A stretch of 15,856 nt of DNA from a virus. Its lineage: Duplodnaviria > Heunggongvirae > Uroviricota > Caudoviricetes. The notes below the pieces were generated by a model that had not been told where the DNA came from, did no database searches, and saw only the letters and a list, made by a program, of their open reading frames with translations. The stretch lies in the IMG/VR virus record IMGVR_UViG_2529292836_000010; one strand, written 5' to 3'. The position numbers and the translations under genes were made by a program. Positions 7,207 through 15,856 of the stretch are shown here, piece by piece (position 1 is the first letter of the stretch; each line of letters opens with the position of its first letter).

Positions 7207-10200
7207 TTTGGGGATTGATGCGGCAGAGTTTAAAAATGAAATTCCCCGTATCAAAAACCTTCTGAATGGTGCCGCCAGCGATGCAGAACGGTCTTCTGCC
7301 CGTATGCAGCGTTTTATGGAGCGTCAGACTCAGGCCGCCCGGCAGACAACGCAGGCGGCTTCTTCGGCTGCAACAGCCGCCTCCGTCCATGCGCAGACGG
7401 TGGAGAAGAACGCACAGGCTCATGAACGCATGGCCCGCGAGGTGGAGAAAACCCGCCAGCGCATGGAGGCGCTGAGCCAGAAAATGCGCGATGAACAGGC
7501 GCAGGCCATGGCTCTGGCGGAGGCTCAGGATAAAGCGGCTGCTGCGTTTTATCGTCAGATTGACAGTGTGAAACAGGCCAGTGCGGGGCTGCAGGAATTA
7601 CAGCGTATTCAGCAGCAGATCCGACAGGCCAGAAACAGTGGCGGGATTGGTCAGCAGGATTATCTGGCGCTGATTTCTGAGGTTACGGCGAAAACCCGTG
7701 TTCTTACACAGGCTGAGGAAGAGGCTACCCGACAGAAAGTGGCGTTTATCCGTCAGCTTAAAGAGCAGGCAACCCGCCAGAATCTTTCTTCTTCTGAGTT
7801 GCTTCGTGCTAAGGCTGCCCAGCTGGGGGTAAGCAGTGCTGCAGAAGTGTATATCCGCAAAATGGAGCAGGCAGGAAAAGCCACGCATTCGCAGGGTCTG
7901 AAAAGTGCAGCGGCCCGCCAGGAGATAGGCGTTCTGATAGGTGAACTGGCTCGCGGCAATTTAGGTGCGCTGAGGGGATCCGGGATAACGCTGGCTAACC
8001 GTGCCGGATGGATAGACACACTGATGTCACCGAAAGGCATGATGCTGGGCGGGGTTATTGGCGGTATTGCCGCGGCCGTCTATGGTCTGGGTAAAGCCTG
8101 GTATGACGGTCAGAAGGAGGGGGAAGAATTTAACCGCCAGTTGTCGCTGACGGGGCATTATGCCGGAGTCACTGCCGGGCAGCTGTGGACGCTCAGTCGT
8201 GCTATTTCCGGGAATGGTATCACGCAACATGCTGCAGCCGGTGCGCTGGCTCAGGTGGTGGGGAGTGGTGCATTTCGTGGAAACGATATCGGTATGGTGG
8301 CGAGAGCTGCCGCACAGATGGAGCGATCGGTTGGCCAGTCGGTCAGCGATACCATAAGTCAGTTTAAGCGGCTGAAGGATGATCCTGTAAATGCCGCGAA
8401 GGCTCTGGACAATGAGCTGCATTTTCTTACTGCCACTCAGCTTGAGCAGATACGCGTCCTTGGGGAACAGGGGCGGTCCAGTGATGCGGCACGGATAGCC
8501 ATGTCTGCACTGGCAGAGGAAACCGGTCGGCGTACTGCGGATATTGATAATAACCTCAATGCGCTGGGCAGTACGCTGAAGTATCTGTCTGATTTATGGA
8601 GGCGTTTCTGGGATGCGGCCATGAATATTGGTCGTGAAGACTCGCTGGATGAACAGATTTCCGCTTTACAGGAGAAAGTGTCGCGGGCGAAAAGACTCCC
8701 CTGGACGGCATCATCTTCTCAGGTTGAGTACGATCAGCAGCGTCTTAACGAGCTTCAGGAGAAAAAACGCCAGAAGGATTTGCAGGATGCAAAAGAGCAG
8801 GCAGAGCGGAATTATCAGGAGCAACAGAAACGCCGTAATGCTGAAAATGCTGCACTGAACCGGATGAATGAAACGGAAGCAGCACGACATCAGCGTGAAA
8901 TTGCGCGTATTAATGCCATGCAGTACGCCGATCAGGCTGTCAGGGATGCGGCGATACAACGTGAAAATGAACGTTACGAGAAAGCCCTGGCATCCGGTAA
9001 GAAAAAAACACGCGAAACCCGTAATGATGAGGCCACCCGGTTATTGCTGCAGTACAGTCAGCAACAGGCACAGGTGGAAGGACAGATTGCTGCTGCAAGA
9101 CAGTCAGCAGGCATTGCCACTGACAGGATGACAGAAGCGCATAAACAGCTTCTGGCTCTGCAGCAGCGCATCAGCGATCTGGACGGGAAAAAACTGACGG
9201 CAGATGAAAAGAGTGTGCTGGCCCGTAAAGATGAACTGATTCAGGCACTGACGCTGCTGGATGTAAAACAGCAGGAGCTTCAGAAACAGACGGCACTCAA
9301 CGATCTGAAGAAAAAAACAATTCAGCTGACCAGTCAACTGGCTGAAGAAGAGCGCGCTCAGCGCCAGCAACATGACCTGGATATCGCCACGGTGGGTATG
9401 GGTGATCAGCAGCGGCAGCGATATCAGGTACAACTGAGTCTTCGCCAGAAATACCAGCAACAGCTGGAGCAGTTGAGGCGGGATAGTGAGCAGAAAGGAA
9501 CATATAACACGGATGACTACAGAAAGGCCGAGCAGGCGCTGACGGAGAGCCTGAACCGACAACTGAATGAGAATCGCCGTTATTGGCAACAGCTTGAAAT
9601 TGCTCAGGGTGACTGGAAAAACGGAGTCCTGCGTGCACTCCAGAATGTCACTGAGAAAGCGGATAACACAGCCGGGACAGTGGAACAGTTGTTCACGTCT
9701 GCGTTCAGTAGCATGAGTGACTGGCTGGCGACATTCTGTACTACAGGCAAACTCAATTTCAAATCCTTCACCTCTTCTGTGCTGTCAGATATGTCCAGAA
9801 TCATGGCTCAGATAGCTTTAATGAAAGCGGTAAAAGGTATTGCTTCCGCGCTGCCTTTTGATTTTGTAGCCAATGCTGATGGCGGTGTTTATCAGTCGGC
9901 TGATTTGAGTCGCTACAGTGGCACGGTGGTTAACCGTCCGACGTTTTTTGCTTTTGCAAAAGGCGCGGGTGTGATGGGGGAAGCTGGACCTGAAGCCATT
10001 CTGCCACTGCGTCGTGGTGCTGACGGTAAGCTGGGGGTTGTGGCGGATATTGGTGGTTCAGGTATGGCGATGTTTGCCCCGCAGTACAACATCGAGATCA
10101 ATAACGATGGCACGAACGGGCAGATAGGTCCGGCTGCCCTGAAGGTGGTTTATGACCTTGGGAAAAAAGCGGCAGCGGACTTTATGCAACAGCAGGCCCG

Positions 10201-10234
10201 TGATGGTGGTCGGTTAAGTGGAGCATATCGGTAA
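7178..10234 (+). CDS. H: Tail tape measure protein H-like (1018 aa)
   Basis: GGAGG at 7165-7169 lies 8 nt before ATG 7178. N-terminus MDQIANLVIDLGIDAAEFKNEI matches recalled lambda gpH MAEPVGDLVVDLSLDAARFDEQ. There is a long Q/R/E-rich coiled-coil centre, and the C-terminus INNDGTNGQIGPAALKVVYDL...DGG matches the gpH C-terminus. The track start 7148 is rejected. Confidence 0.9.
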   Translation: MDQIANLVIDLGIDAAEFKNEIPRIKNLLNGAASDAERSSARMQRFMERQTQAARQTTQAASSAATAASVHAQTVEKNAQAHERMAREVEKTRQRMEALSQKMRDEQAQAMALAEAQDKAAAAFYRQIDSVKQASAGLQELQRIQQQIRQARNSGGIGQQDYLALISEVTAKTRVLTQAEEEATRQKVAFIRQLKEQATRQNLSSSELLRAKAAQLGVSSAAEVYIRKMEQAGKATHSQGLKSAAARQEIGVLIGELARGNLGALRGSGITLANRAGWIDTLMSPKGMMLGGVIGGIAAAVYGLGKAWYDGQKEGEEFNRQLSLTGHYAGVTAGQLWTLSRAISGNGITQHAAAGALAQVVGSGAFRGNDIGMVARAAAQMERSVGQSVSDTISQFKRLKDDPVNAAKALDNELHFLTATQLEQIRVLGEQGRSSDAARIAMSALAEETGRRTADIDNNLNALGSTLKYLSDLWRRFWDAAMNIGREDSLDEQISALQEKVSRAKRLPWTASSSQVEYDQQRLNELQEKKRQKDLQDAKEQAERNYQEQQKRRNAENAALNRMNETEAARHQREIARINAMQYADQAVRDAAIQRENERYEKALASGKKKTRETRNDEATRLLLQYSQQQAQVEGQIAAARQSAGIATDRMTEAHKQLLALQQRISDLDGKKLTADEKSVLARKDELIQALTLLDVKQQELQKQTALNDLKKKTIQLTSQLAEEERAQRQQHDLDIATVGMGDQQRQRYQVQLSLRQKYQQQLEQLRRDSEQKGTYNTDDYRKAEQALTESLNRQLNENRRYWQQLEIAQGDWKNGVLRALQNVTEKADNTAGTVEQLFTSAFSSMSDWLATFCTTGKLNFKSFTSSVLSDMSRIMAQIALMKAVKGIASALPFDFVANADGGVYQSADLSRYSGTVVNRPTFFAFAKGAGVMGEAGPEAILPLRRGADGKLGVVADIGGSGMAMFAPQYNIEINNDGTNGQIGPAALKVVYDLGKKAAADFMQQQARDGGRLSGAYR

Positions 10235-10563
10235 TGGAGACGTTTCACTGGAAAGTGCGCCCGGATATGAATGTGGTATCAGAGCCGAAAGTGGTGACAG
10301 TGAAGCTGGGCGATGGTTATGAACAGCGTCGTGCGGCGGGACTGAATAACCAGTTGTCGACTTACAGCGTGACGATACGTGTTCGTAAATGTGAACACCC
10401 ATCTTTGAAAGCCTTTCTGGAACGGCACGGTGGCGTCCGCGCATTTCAGTGGACGCCACCTTATGACTGGAAGCCGATCAGGGTGGTTTGTCGTAAATGG
10501 TCGGCAAGCGTGGGGGCGCTGTGGGTAACCATAACGGCAGATTTTGAACAGGTCGTGGCATAG
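10234..10563 (+). CDS. M: Tail tip protein M-like (109 aa)
   Basis: METFHWKVRPDMNVVSEPKVVTVKLGDGYEQRR.AGLN..L.TYSVT...HGG...F.WTPPY.W...V.C.KWS matches recalled lambda gpM (MKTFRWKVKPGMDVASVP..GDGYSQRAPAGLNANLKTYSVT). The start overlaps the H stop (TAATG). Confidence 0.9.
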   Translation: METFHWKVRPDMNVVSEPKVVTVKLGDGYEQRRAAGLNNQLSTYSVTIRVRKCEHPSLKAFLERHGGVRAFQWTPPYDWKPIRVVCRKWSASVGALWVTITADFEQVVA

Positions 10564-10572
10564 GAGGCTCTG

Positions 10573-11271
10573 ATGCAGGATATTCCACAGGAAACACATC
10601 ATGAGACGACACGCCTCACTCAGTCAGCCCAGGTGGTGCTCTGGGAAATCGATCTGACAGAGGTCGGTGGTGAACGTTATTTTTTCTGTAATGAGCAGAA
10701 CGAAAAAGGTGAGCCGGTTACCTGGCAGGGGCGGCAGTATCAGGCATACCCCATTCAGGGGACAGGATTTGAACTGAACGGCAAGGGCAGTGCTGCCCGT
10801 CCGACACTGACGGTTTCTAACCTGCACGGTATGGTCACCGGGATGGCGGAAGATCTGCAGAGTCTGGTCGGCGGAACGGTGGTCCGGCGTAAGGTTTACG
10901 CCCGTTTTCTGGATGCGGTGAACTTCGTCAACGGAAACAGCGACGCCGATCCGGAGCAGGAGGTGATTAGCCGCTGGCGCATCGAGCAGTGCAGCGAACT
11001 GAGCGCGGTCAGTGCCTCCTTTGTACTGTCCACGCCGACTGAAACGGATGGTGCCGTTTTTCCGGGGCGCATCATGCTGGCTAATACCTGCACCTGGACC
11101 TATCGCGGTGATGAGTGCGGTTATAACGGTCCGGCGGTCGCGGATGAATATGACCAGCCGACGTCCGATATCACGAAGGATAAATGCAGCAAATGCCTGA
11201 GTGGCTGTAAGTTTCGCAATAATGTCGGCAACTTTGGCGGCTTCCTTTCCATTAACAAACTTTCGCAGTAA
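10573..11271 (+). CDS. L: Tail tip protein L-like with C-terminal Cys cluster (232 aa)
   Basis: GGAGG at 10562-10566 precedes ATG 10573. Essentially collinear with recalled lambda gpL (SAQVVLWEIDLTEVGGERYFFCNEQNEKGEPVTWQGRQYQAYPIQG...) and ends in the Cys-rich CSKCLSGCKF motif known to bind an Fe-S cluster. Confidence 0.9.
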   Translation: MQDIPQETHHETTRLTQSAQVVLWEIDLTEVGGERYFFCNEQNEKGEPVTWQGRQYQAYPIQGTGFELNGKGSAARPTLTVSNLHGMVTGMAEDLQSLVGGTVVRRKVYARFLDAVNFVNGNSDADPEQEVISRWRIEQCSELSAVSASFVLSTPTETDGAVFPGRIMLANTCTWTYRGDECGYNGPAVADEYDQPTSDITKDKCSKCLSGCKFRNNVGNFGGFLSINKLSQ

Positions 11272-11276
11272 ATCCC

Positions 11277-12028
11277 ATGACACAGACAGAATCAGCGATT
11301 CTGGCGCACGCCCGGCGATGTGCGCCAGCGGAGTCGTGCGGCTTCGTGGTAAGCACGCCGGAGGGGGAAAGATATTTCCCCTGCGTGAATATCTCCGGTG
11401 AGCCGGAGGCGTATTTCCGTATGTCGCCGGAAGACTGGCTGCAGGCAGAAATGCAGGGTGAGATTGTGGCGCTGGTCCACAGCCACCCCGGTGGTCTGCC
11501 CTGGCTGAGTGAGGCTGACCGGCGGCTGCAGGTGCAGAGTGATTTGCCGTGGTGGCTGGTCTGCCGGGGTGAGATTCATAAATTCCGCTGTGTGCCGCAT
11601 CTCACCGGGCGGCGCTTTGAGCACGGGGTGACGGACTGTTACACGCTGTTCCGGGATGCTTACCATCTGGCGGGGATTGAGATGCCGGATTTTCATCGTG
11701 AGGATGACTGGTGGCGTACGGTCAGAATCTCTATCTGGATAATCTGGAGGCACAGGGCTTATCAGGTGCCGTTGTCAGCGGCGCAGCCGGGCGATGTGCT
11801 GCTGTGCTGTTTTGGTTCATCGGTGCCGAATCATGCCGCTATTTACTGCGGCGACGGCGAGCTGCTGCACCATATTCCTGAACAACTGAGAAACGAGAGA
11901 GGTATACCGACAAATGGCAGCGACGCACACACTCCCTCTGGCGTCACCGGGCATGGCCGCATCTGCCTTTACGGGGATTTGCAACGATTTGGCCGCCGCA
12001 TCGACCTTCGTGTGAAAACGGGGGCTGA
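11277..12028 (+). pseudogene. K: Tail tip assembly protein K-like (JAMM/MPN plus NlpC/P60 domains), apparently frame-disrupted
   Basis: JAMM motif E..HSHPGGLPWLSEAD and NlpC/P60 Cys/His contexts (GVTDCYTLF, NHAAIY) are present. Around 11715-11765 the ORF frame reads the atypical WRTVRISIWIIWRHRA, whereas an alternate frame gives the lambda-like GQNLYLDNLEAQGL. Downstream, the frame-0 ORF no longer stops at the expected K end (frame-2 TGA at 12026-12028) but reads on into I. Confidence 0.7.
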
Positions 12029-12556
12029 AGCCATCCGGGCGCTGGCCACACAGCTCCCGGCGTTTCGTCAGAAACTGAATGACGGCTGGTATCAGGTGCG
12101 CATTGCCGGGCGTGATGCAGGCGAAACCGAATTATCTGCCCGTCTTAATGAGCCGCTGGCAAATGGTGCCGTGATCCATATCGTGCCGCGTCTGGCGGGA
12201 GCTAAAAGTGGCGGTGTGTTTCAGGTGGTGCTGGGGGCGGCGTTGATTGCGGTGGCATGGTGGAACCCTGTGGGCTGGCTGGGTGCCGCGGCTGTATCGG
12301 GATGTATGCGCAGGGGCCAGTATGATCCTGGGGGTGTGGCGCAGATGCTGGCACCGAAAGCCAGGACGCCACGGCAGCCAGTACAGATAACGGCAAACAG
12401 AACACCTATTTCTCCTCACTGGATAACATGGTTGCCCAGGGCAATGTTCTGCCGGTTCTGTACGGTGAAATGCGCGTGGGGTCGCGGGTGGTTTCTCAGG
12501 AGATCAGCACGGCAGACGAAGGGGATGGTGGTCAGGTTGTGGTGATTGGTCGCTGA
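11914..12556 (+). pseudogene. I: Tail tip assembly protein I-like, split over three reading frames
   Basis: ATG 11914 gives MAATHTLPLASPGMA, matching the recalled gpI N-terminus, then a stop after 33 codons. The next gpI block (RICLYGDLQRFGRRIDLRVKTGAEAIRALATQLPAFRQ...GGVAQMLAPKARTPR) is in frame 0, fused to the K ORF. The last block (DNGKQNTYFSSLDNMVAQGNVLPVLYGEMRVGSRVVSQEISTADEGDGGQVVVIGR*) is in frame 2 and ends at 12554-12556. Confidence 0.7.
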
Positions 12557-12574
12557 TGAAAAACGTTTATGTGA

Positions 12575-12594
12575 AACCGCCTCCGGGCGGTTTT
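12575..12594 (+). terminator. Terminator-like hairpin in the I-J intergenic region
   Basis: 7-bp stem AACCGCC (12575-12581), loop TCCG, GGCGGTT (12586-12592), followed by a T-rich tract (ttttgtcgttt). It lies in a 59-nt gap before the J SD (GGAG at 12604-12607). Confidence 0.3.
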
Positions 12595-12615
12595 GTCGTT
12601 TATGGAGCGTGACGA

Positions 12616-15856
<3,241 letters not shown>

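What the first reader, a model, noticed from the sequence alone, without database searches (positions are those of the whole stretch)
11914..12556. Gene I is split across three frames and its body is fused in-frame to K, creating a 422-aa chimeric ORF
The track ORF 11277-12545 is not a natural protein. It is K up to about 11950, then the body of I, then about 55 codons of out-of-frame I sequence (QPVQITANRTPISPHWITWLPRAMFCRFCTVKCAWG...). One deletion in a C-run near 11957 joins I to the K frame, and a second near 12375 moves the I C-terminus into frame 2. Automated annotation would probably call this a large novel K/I fusion protein.
Basis: partly seen in the sequence, partly recalled or inferred. 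Interest (0 to 1): 0.55.

Follow-up and report, generated by a model that had tools for sequence, protein, structure and literature searches.

The report
K–I fusion ORF is assembly artefact
The 422-residue "K/I fusion" reading frame is really in the sequence, but it was almost certainly created when a draft E. coli genome assembly merged two near-identical prophage tail-gene copies and dropped bases where they differ, so it is not a real protein.

Summary
The ORF at 11277-12545 exists. The cause is nine missing bases in K/I plus one in the spacer, not two.

These ten belong to 61 missing bases (44 events, no insertions), all between 11717 and 14772. That lies in a 3.1-kb patch covering the K 3' end, I and the first two-thirds of J. 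The 11.7 kb upstream has no indels and 4 mismatches against the closest complete genome, E. coli NCCP 13717.

NCCP 13717 carries two co-resident copies of L-K-I-J, A and B, which align without gaps. At the 148 patch sites where they differ, the window has A 51 times, B 54 times and nothing 38 times. 37 of 44 deletion events sit on such a site (about 2.7 expected by chance). Outside the patch the window is almost pure A.

No complete E. coli genome record matched shares the deletions tested. Eighty IMG/VR relatives and mEp460 have intact I.

The window is a whole draft contig, AQEB01000008.1 of E. coli 2731150. The ORF is deposited as EMW90665.1, a singleton.

Verdict: a collapsed-repeat consensus artefact, of low interest except for database curation.

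The parts
11277..12545 (+). 422-aa chimeric ORF, deposited as EMW90665.1. Residues 1-147 are K, 148-161 scrambled, 162-204 K, 205-227 junction codon plus third-frame linker, 228-341 I, 342-352 scrambled, 353-364 I, and 365-422 out-of-frame I sequence.
11277..12015 (+). Remains of gene K (tail tip assembly protein, JAB/MPN + NlpC/P60; 744 nt and 247 aa when intact). Five bases are missing, after 11717, 11750, 11759, 11890 and 11957.
11914..12556 (+). Remains of gene I (tail assembly protein I; 648 nt and 215 aa when intact). Five bases are missing, after 11957, 12301, 12309, 12332 and 12368. In intact relatives it overlaps K by 103 nt, in the -1 frame of K.
12428..12556 (+). 42-aa ORF that is the true in-frame C-terminus of I (MVAQGNVLPVLYGEMRVGSRVVSQEISTADEGDGGQVVVIGR).
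11699..14830 (.). Blended patch holding all 61 missing bases (44 events) and 70 of the 77 substitutions against copy A. The sequence alternates between alleles of prophage copy A and copy B, with bases dropped at sites where the two differ.
12616..15856 (+). Gene J (tail tip / host specificity protein). It is broken into at least six called ORFs by 50 of the missing bases and runs off the contig end.
1..11698 (+). Clean part of the contig: ISCro1 end, terminase remnant, portal, protease/capsid, tail genes through L and the first 140 codons of K. It has no indels and 4 mismatches against NCCP 13717 copy A.

Best explanation
The fusion ORF is a consensus artefact of a draft genome assembly. The window is the complete 15,856-bp contig AQEB01000008.1 of E. 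coli 2731150. This strain's lineage carries at least two lambdoid prophages whose K-I-J tail-tip genes are about 95% identical.

Where the contig enters this shared segment, reads from both copies were piled together. At columns where the copies differ, the consensus took one allele, the other allele, or no base at all. The dropped bases produce frameshifts. These scramble part of K, join K to I, push the end of I into another frame and shred J.

In the cell, K (247 aa) and I (215 aa) are most likely separate, intact, overlapping genes in each prophage copy.

Shown here:
- The positions of the losses.
- Their coincidence with the differences between the two copies.
- The A/B blending.
- The absence of these losses from complete genomes.

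Inferred:
- That the assembler's consensus step is the agent, since no reads were available.
- That strain 2731150 itself holds both copies. This was shown only for its closest complete relative.
For: 1. Source. Exact protein look-up places the ORF on NCBI GCA_000354895.2, contig AQEB01000008.1. Its length of 15856 equals the whole window. The contig starts in an IS element and ends inside J, so both ends are at repeats.

2. Distribution of the losses against the colinear copy A in NCCP 13717:
- 61 missing bases and no insertions, all between 11717 and 14772.
- Positions 1-11698 have no indels and 4 mismatches.

3. Comparison with both NCCP 13717 copies. Copy B is at 2.84 Mb, and A and B align with no gaps. 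In the three-way alignment:
- Upstream (10573-11698): the window matches A at 92 of 92 sites where A and B differ.
- Patch (11699-14830): at 148 such sites the window has A 51 times, B 54 times, a deletion 38 times and another base 5 times.
- 37 of 44 deletion events sit on a site where A and B differ. Random placement gives a mean of 2.7 and a maximum of 9 in 5000 trials.
- 54 of 70 substitutions against A are the B allele.
- Downstream (14831-15856): A 26 times, B 3 times.

4. Independent panel of 81 homologues (80 IMG/VR loci plus mEp460):
- 34 of 44 events lie on naturally polymorphic sites, against 9.8 expected; 0 of 5000 trials reached this.
- 64 of 74 window substitutions are alleles seen in the panel. 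The other 10 abut multi-base gaps.

5. Type of site:
- The losses are not homopolymer-biased: 19 of 34 single-base events are in runs of length 1, against a background of 57%.
- 23 of 33 coding single-base events hit codon position 3, as natural SNPs do.

6. Absence elsewhere:
- None of 4229 complete-genome records has the 11890 and 11957 losses (best match 91/93).
- None of 3492 has the four losses at 12301-12368 (best match 91/95).
- All 80 IMG/VR relatives encode a full 215-aa I.
- The 422-aa protein is a singleton cluster among about 15 billion proteins.

7. Copy number. The H region is single-copy per genome (median 1 place). The K-I-J region has a median of 3 places and up to 14.

8. Recurrence. 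Three other IMG/VR contigs (L085-L087) show 42-128 missing bases in the same L-K-I-J region. These are again mostly at polymorphic sites, and only 8-16 positions are shared with the window. This pattern points to a recurrent process, not inheritance.
Against: - No reads, coverage data or assembly method were available, so the consensus step is inferred, not observed.
- Copy B was taken from a related complete genome, not from strain 2731150.
- 7 of 44 events and 16 of 70 substitutions are not explained by A versus B. A third copy exists in NCCP 13717 and was not examined.
- The last 1 kb of the contig (14831-15856) is again almost pure A, although A and B differ there by only 2.8%. Divergence alone therefore does not set the patch boundary.
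- Prophage A really is defective, because an IS interrupts the terminase gene. Some real decay of tail genes in this lineage is therefore not implausible.
Confidence: 0.93

Rival explanations
1. Genuine pseudogenes. The prophage is a decaying cryptic element, and K, I and J have really accumulated frameshift deletions in this strain, so the cell encodes the 422-aa chimera.
For: The prophage is defective: ISCro1 has been inserted into the terminase gene. A close relative, L5_E1779_ETEC, has an internal stop in U. Bacterial mutation is deletion-biased (established knowledge).
Against: - 44 deletion events and no insertions in 3.1 kb, beside 11.7 kb with none.
- 37 of 44 events fall exactly on sites where two co-resident copies differ, against 2.7 expected by chance.
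- Most hit third codon positions.
- The relatives with the same IS insertion have intact K, I and J.
- No complete genome record matched shares the tested deletions.
- No mutational process is known to target sites that happen to be polymorphic in a paralogue.
Confidence: 0.03
2. Platform miscalls of homopolymer lengths (454, Ion Torrent or nanopore type) in an otherwise correctly assembled single-copy region.
For: All the indels are deletions of 1-4 nt. A few lie in short runs, for example TTTT to TTT at 12565.
Against: - The run-length distribution of deleted bases equals the background, and only 3 of 34 are in runs of 3 or more.
- Such errors would be spread over the whole contig, yet 1-11698 and 14831-15856 have none.
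- This does not explain the alternation of A and B alleles.
Confidence: 0.02
3. A real recombinant (gene-conversion mosaic) between prophages A and B that the assembler reported faithfully. The A/B alternation would be real, with sequencing or consensus errors added on top.
For: Lambdoid prophages do exchange tail-gene segments (established knowledge). Runs of pure B alleles without deletions occur at about 12400-13000 and 13500-13900.
Against: - This still needs a separate cause for deletions placed exactly on A/B differences.
- The alternation is very fine-grained, with switches every few sites. That is more typical of per-column consensus voting than of conversion tracts.
- This rival does not rescue the fusion ORF as real.
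Confidence: 0.02

Closest known systems
Lambda-type tail tip genes K and I, as in phage mEp460 (NC_019716, F853_gp16/gp17), phage cdtI and the E. coli NCCP 13717 prophage (WP_032311100.1 / WP_000741576.1)
   Same: Same gene order, L-K-I-J. The DNA is 97-98% identical over 11200-12700. The domains are the same: Prok-JAB + NlpC/P60 for K and Lambda_tail_I for I. The start of K and the start and stop of I are the same.
   Different: In all of these, K (247 aa) and I (215 aa in NCCP 13717) are separate genes. In the NCCP 13717, L5_E1779 and second NCCP copies they overlap by 103 nt. The window lacks nine bases in K/I and therefore reads through as one 422-aa ORF.
Collapsed-repeat (paralogue-merging) consensus errors in draft genome assemblies
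   Same: The damage is confined to a multi-copy segment near a contig end. The sequence alternates between the alleles of two copies, and indels sit at the columns where the copies differ. The same kind of damage occurs in other draft-derived contigs. It is absent from complete genomes.
   Different: The assembler and read type for AQEB01 could not be looked up here. The exclusive direction of the error (only deletions, 1-4 nt) is a property of that unknown pipeline and was not reproduced here.
Lambda G/GT programmed -1 frameshift (a real fusion of adjacent tail genes)
   Same: Two adjacent tail genes are read as one polypeptide, with the downstream gene in the -1 frame of the upstream one.
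   Different: Here the fusion is written into the DNA by missing bases, with scrambled linker residues. Nothing indicates ribosomal slippage, no K-I frameshift product is known to me, and none was tested.

Membership tests
Lambda gpK-type tail tip assembly protein (JAB/MPN + NlpC/P60) | N-terminal Prok-JAB domain followed by a complete NlpC/P60 domain, in a protein of about 247 aa encoded between L and I | tested here: inconclusive
   Prok-JAB is intact (residues 3-105). The NlpC/P60 match is truncated to profile positions 1-81 of 105, against 1-105 in the intact relative. Residues 148-161 are scrambled, and the last 43 K residues are replaced. The DNA is clearly gene K with five bases missing.
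Lambda gpI-type tail assembly protein (PF06805) | Lambda_tail_I domain near the N-terminus of a separate protein of about 215-223 aa, with its own start codon and the conserved C-terminus ...VSQEISTADEGDGGQVVVIGR | tested here: not met
   The domain is present (residues 228-309 of the ORF, 82 bits). However, the I start codon (11914) is out of frame with it, and the conserved C-terminus lies in another frame as a separate 42-aa ORF. As written, no ORF encodes an I protein. The DNA is gene I with five bases missing.
Natural K-I fusion protein | The same fused architecture recurs in independent genomes | tested here: not met
   The protein is a singleton 90% cluster among about 15 billion proteins. 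No record with the junction deletions was found among 4229 complete-genome records. All 80 IMG/VR relatives encode a full 215-aa I, and K and I are annotated as separate genes in the relatives examined.
Collapsed-repeat assembly artefact | The errors coincide with differences between paralogous copies and are confined to the repeated segment | tested here: met
   37 of 44 events lie on sites where A and B differ, against 2.7 expected. The patch is a blend (A 51, B 54, deleted 38), and the flanks are almost pure A. The segment is multi-copy, with a median of 3 places per genome against 1 for H.
Collapsed-repeat assembly artefact | Excess read depth and biallelic read pile-ups over the patch | not testable with these tools

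The most novel reading that the evidence does not exclude
The deletions are real, made by a biological process that acts on heteroduplex DNA formed during recombination between the two co-resident prophages. In that case, error-prone processing of mismatched positions would leave 1-4-nt deletions exactly at the sites where the copies differ. This would inactivate the tail genes of a defective prophage and create a K-I chimera.
Probability: 0.02. Interest if true: 0.65.

Novelty: not a real feature. Interest (0 to 1): 0.07.

Why it matters
Biologically it does not matter: the strain almost certainly has ordinary, separate K and I genes.

Practically, it is a clean worked example of how merged prophage paralogues in draft assemblies create fake "novel fusion" proteins. 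These persist in public databases. Here the examples are EMW90665.1 and the fragments of J.

It also gives a simple diagnostic that needs no reads. Indels that fall on sites polymorphic among paralogues, and mostly on third codon positions, indicate a consensus artefact. The same signature appears in at least three IMG/VR viral contigs. Tail-gene "pseudogenes" and odd ORFs in such collections should therefore be treated with care.

Tried and rejected
Rejected by base-level alignment, which shows nine losses in K/I, none of them a C-run contraction.
- Homopolymer-type sequencing error. Rejected by run-length analysis and by the confinement to one patch.
- Looking for the window in IMG/VR by an exact 46-mer across three window-specific deletions. 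No hit.
- Looking for a single homologue that explains the whole patch. Among 81 loci none does. The best, L034, explains 28 of 61 deleted positions and 45 of 73 substitutions. The co-resident copy B of NCCP 13717 does better.
- Literature searches for AQEB01, GCA_000354895 and strain 2731150, to learn the sequencing and assembly method. Nothing relevant.
- Terminator scan of the I-J spacer. Nothing by the tool's criteria.
- Loci from E. coli genomes were sometimes not exported to the script machine. L002 and L004 never appeared, so L003 and L089 were used instead.

Full report
**What is in the sequence**

The window is the late-gene region of a lambdoid (mEp460/cdtI-like) E. coli prophage. 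In order it holds:
- the end of an IS66-family ISCro1 transposase gene and a remnant of the terminase gene;
- the portal gene and a ClpP-protease/capsid fusion gene;
- the tail genes Z, U, V, G, T, H, M and L;
- then K, I and J.

A 422-aa ORF runs from 11277 to 12545 on the + strand. Pfam finds Prok-JAB (residues 3-105) and NlpC/P60 (111-200), the two domains of lambda-type K. These are followed by Lambda_tail_I (228-309).

**Exact anatomy**

I aligned window 11200-12700 with two intact relatives, the E. coli NCCP 13717 prophage and phage mEp460. The window has ten single-base deletions and no insertions. They lie after window positions 11717, 11750, 11759, 11890, 11957, 12301, 12309, 12332, 12368 and 12565.

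Mapping every codon of the ORF onto the reference frames gives:

| ORF residues | Content |
|---|---|
| 1-147 | K |
| 148-161 | out of frame (TVRISIWIIWRHRA); three deletions restore the frame |
| 162-204 | K |
| 205 | junction codon spanning the deletion at 11890 |
| 206-227 | third frame, between the deletions at 11890 and 11957 |
| 228-341 | I |
| 342-352 | scrambled |
| 353-364 | I again (GVAQMLAPKART) |
| 365-422 | out-of-frame I sequence |

The true I C-terminus survives as a separate 42-aa ORF at 12428-12556.

In intact relatives K is 247 aa and I is 215 aa. The two genes overlap by 103 nt, with I in the -1 frame of K.

The missing base there is an A (a G in some relatives) between GGC and CGC.

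**The lesion is much larger than the finding**

The whole window is 99.3% identical to a colinear stretch of E. coli NCCP 13717, including the same IS/terminase junction. A full-length alignment shows:
- 61 missing bases in 44 events: 34 of 1 nt, 5 of 2 nt, 3 of 3 nt and 2 of 4 nt;
- no insertions;
- all events between 11717 and 14772;
- 73 of the 77 substitutions between 11699 and 14826;
- no indels and 4 mismatches in positions 1-11698.

The same damage cuts J into at least six called ORFs.

**Where the window comes from**

Exact look-up of the 422-aa product finds one place: NCBI assembly GCA_000354895.2, contig AQEB01000008.1. Its length is 15,856 bp, so the window is the entire contig. 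The protein is deposited as EMW90665.1, [quoted passage not shown]. It is a singleton at 90% identity among about 15 billion proteins. The contig begins in an IS element and ends inside J, so both ends are at repeats.

**Test of cause 1: are the deletions at sites that vary among natural homologues?**

I fetched 80 IMG/VR loci encoding I. All have a full 215-aa match, and most align to the reference K-J segment without any gap. With mEp460 added, the panel has 81 homologues. The results are:
- 34 of 44 deletion events fall on a site with a minor allele seen at least twice. Random placement in the patch gives 9.8, and 0 of 5000 trials reached the observed value.
- 64 of 74 window substitutions carry alleles seen in the panel. 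The other ten abut multi-base gaps and are alignment noise.
- The deleted bases are not homopolymer-biased: 19 of 34 single-base events are in runs of length 1, against a background of 57%.
- 23 of 33 coding single-base events hit codon position 3.

The losses behave like SNP sites, not like mutations or platform errors.

**Test of cause 2: the co-resident paralogue**

For window 13000-14800, the best match in NCCP 13717 is not the colinear copy A. It is a second prophage at 2.84 Mb, copy B, which has intact L, K, I and J. A and B align with no gaps. The three-way alignment gives:

| Region (window) | Sites where A and B differ | Window has A | Window has B | Deleted | Other |
|---|---|---|---|---|---|
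| Upstream 10573-11698 | 92 | 92 | 0 | 0 | 0 |
| Patch 11699-14830 | 148 | 51 | 54 | 38 | 5 |
| Downstream 14831-15856 | 29 | 26 | 3 | 0 | 0 |

Within the patch, A, B and deleted sites alternate in short runs. In addition:
- 37 of 44 deletion events sit on a site where A and B differ. Random placement gives a mean of 2.7 and a maximum of 9 in 5000 trials.
- 54 of 70 substitutions against A are the B allele.

The patch is therefore a column-by-column blend of two prophage copies that co-reside in this lineage, with bases dropped where they disagree.

**Supporting context**

- The H region upstream is single-copy per genome: a median of 1 place, with 2068 places in 1862 genomes.
- The K-I-J segment is multi-copy: a median of 3 places and up to 14, with 15,391 places in 4608 genomes.
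- None of 4229 complete-genome records has the two junction deletions (best match 91/93). None of 3492 has the four I deletions (best match 91/95).
- An exact 30-mer across the 11957 deletion does occur in three IMG/VR contigs. Those contigs carry their own 42-128 missing bases in the same L-K-I-J region, again mostly at polymorphic sites. They share only 8-16 positions with the window. This is what a recurrent assembly process acting on similar pairs of paralogues would give, and not what inheritance would give.

**Interpretation**

The best explanation (confidence about 0.93) is a collapsed-repeat consensus artefact in a draft assembly. Reads from two or more prophage copies of K-I-J were merged, and heterogeneous columns were resolved as allele A, allele B or a gap.

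Shown here:
- the positions of the losses;
- the A/B blend;
- the statistical coincidence with the differences between copies;
- the multi-copy nature of the segment;
- the absence of the tested losses from finished genomes.

Inferred:
- the consensus step itself, because no reads or assembly metadata were available;
- that strain 2731150 carries both copies, which I showed only for its closest complete relative.

Not fully explained:
- 7 events and 16 substitutions are not accounted for by A versus B. A third copy exists in NCCP 13717 and was not examined.
- The last 1 kb of the contig returns to pure A, although A and B are similar there.

**Rivals**

- Genuine pseudogenisation of a defective prophage is conceivable, because an IS interrupts the terminase gene and a relative has a stop in U. 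It cannot explain why the deletions avoid 11.7 kb of adjacent sequence. It also cannot explain why they land on sites that differ in a paralogue and on third codon positions, or why relatives with the same IS insertion have intact K, I and J.
- Homopolymer miscalling is excluded by run-length analysis and by the confinement to one patch.
- A real A/B gene-conversion mosaic could underlie part of the allele alternation, but it would not make the deletions real.
- A natural or programmed K-I fusion has no support. The architecture is unique to this contig.

**Comparison with known things, and verdict**

The DNA is ordinary lambda-type K and I, 97-98% identical to mEp460-group phages and to many E. 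coli prophages. As written, no ORF qualifies as an I protein, and the K reading frame lacks its last 43 residues and part of its NlpC/P60 domain.

The feature is not real biology. Its value is as a curation flag for EMW90665.1 and the J fragments of this contig, and as a read-free diagnostic for merged-paralogue artefacts. Interest is low.

Noticed in passing
window 1-300: The contig starts with the 3' end of an IS66-family ISCro1 transposase gene (1-194), followed by an 84-nt remnant of the terminase large-subunit gene (217-300). The prophage is therefore defective by IS insertion. The identical junction is present in E. coli NCCP 13717 and L5_E1779_ETEC.
   Followed up: partly
window 12616-15856: Gene J (host specificity / tail tip) is cut into at least six called ORFs by 50 of the 61 missing bases, and it runs off the contig end. 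These fragments are presumably deposited as separate proteins, like the K/I chimera.
   Followed up: partly
L085 (IMGVR_UViG_2531839454_000013), L086 (IMGVR_UViG_2531839332_000012), L087 (IMGVR_UViG_2529293146_000012): Three IMG/VR viral contigs show the same kind of damage in L-K-I-J: 121, 128 and 42 missing bases against the intact reference, mostly at polymorphic sites. They share the 11957 deletion but few others. The artefact is therefore recurrent in public viral contig collections.
   Followed up: partly
L003 11277-12565 (maps to window 11277-12556): In intact relatives K and I overlap by 103 nt, and I lies in the -1 frame of K. A -1 ribosomal slip in the overlap would give a K-I fusion much like the artefactual one. 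I did not look for slippery sites or for conservation of such a signal.
   Followed up: no
L004 5266-5667 (E. coli L5_E1779_ETEC, NZ_LR883006.1): In this close relative the minor tail protein U gene is annotated as a pseudogene with an internal stop. Some real decay of this IS-disrupted prophage therefore occurs in the lineage.
   Followed up: no
window 14831-15856: The last 1 kb of the contig is again almost pure copy A (26 of 29 informative sites) with no deletions. Yet copies A and B differ there by only 2.8%, less than in the blended patch. I could not explain why the blending stops here.
   Followed up: no
window 1962-3989 and 6482-7206: There is a ClpP-like prohead protease / major capsid fusion gene (675 aa), and a G/T tail chaperone pair arranged as in lambda. 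Both match the intact relatives without indels.
   Followed up: no
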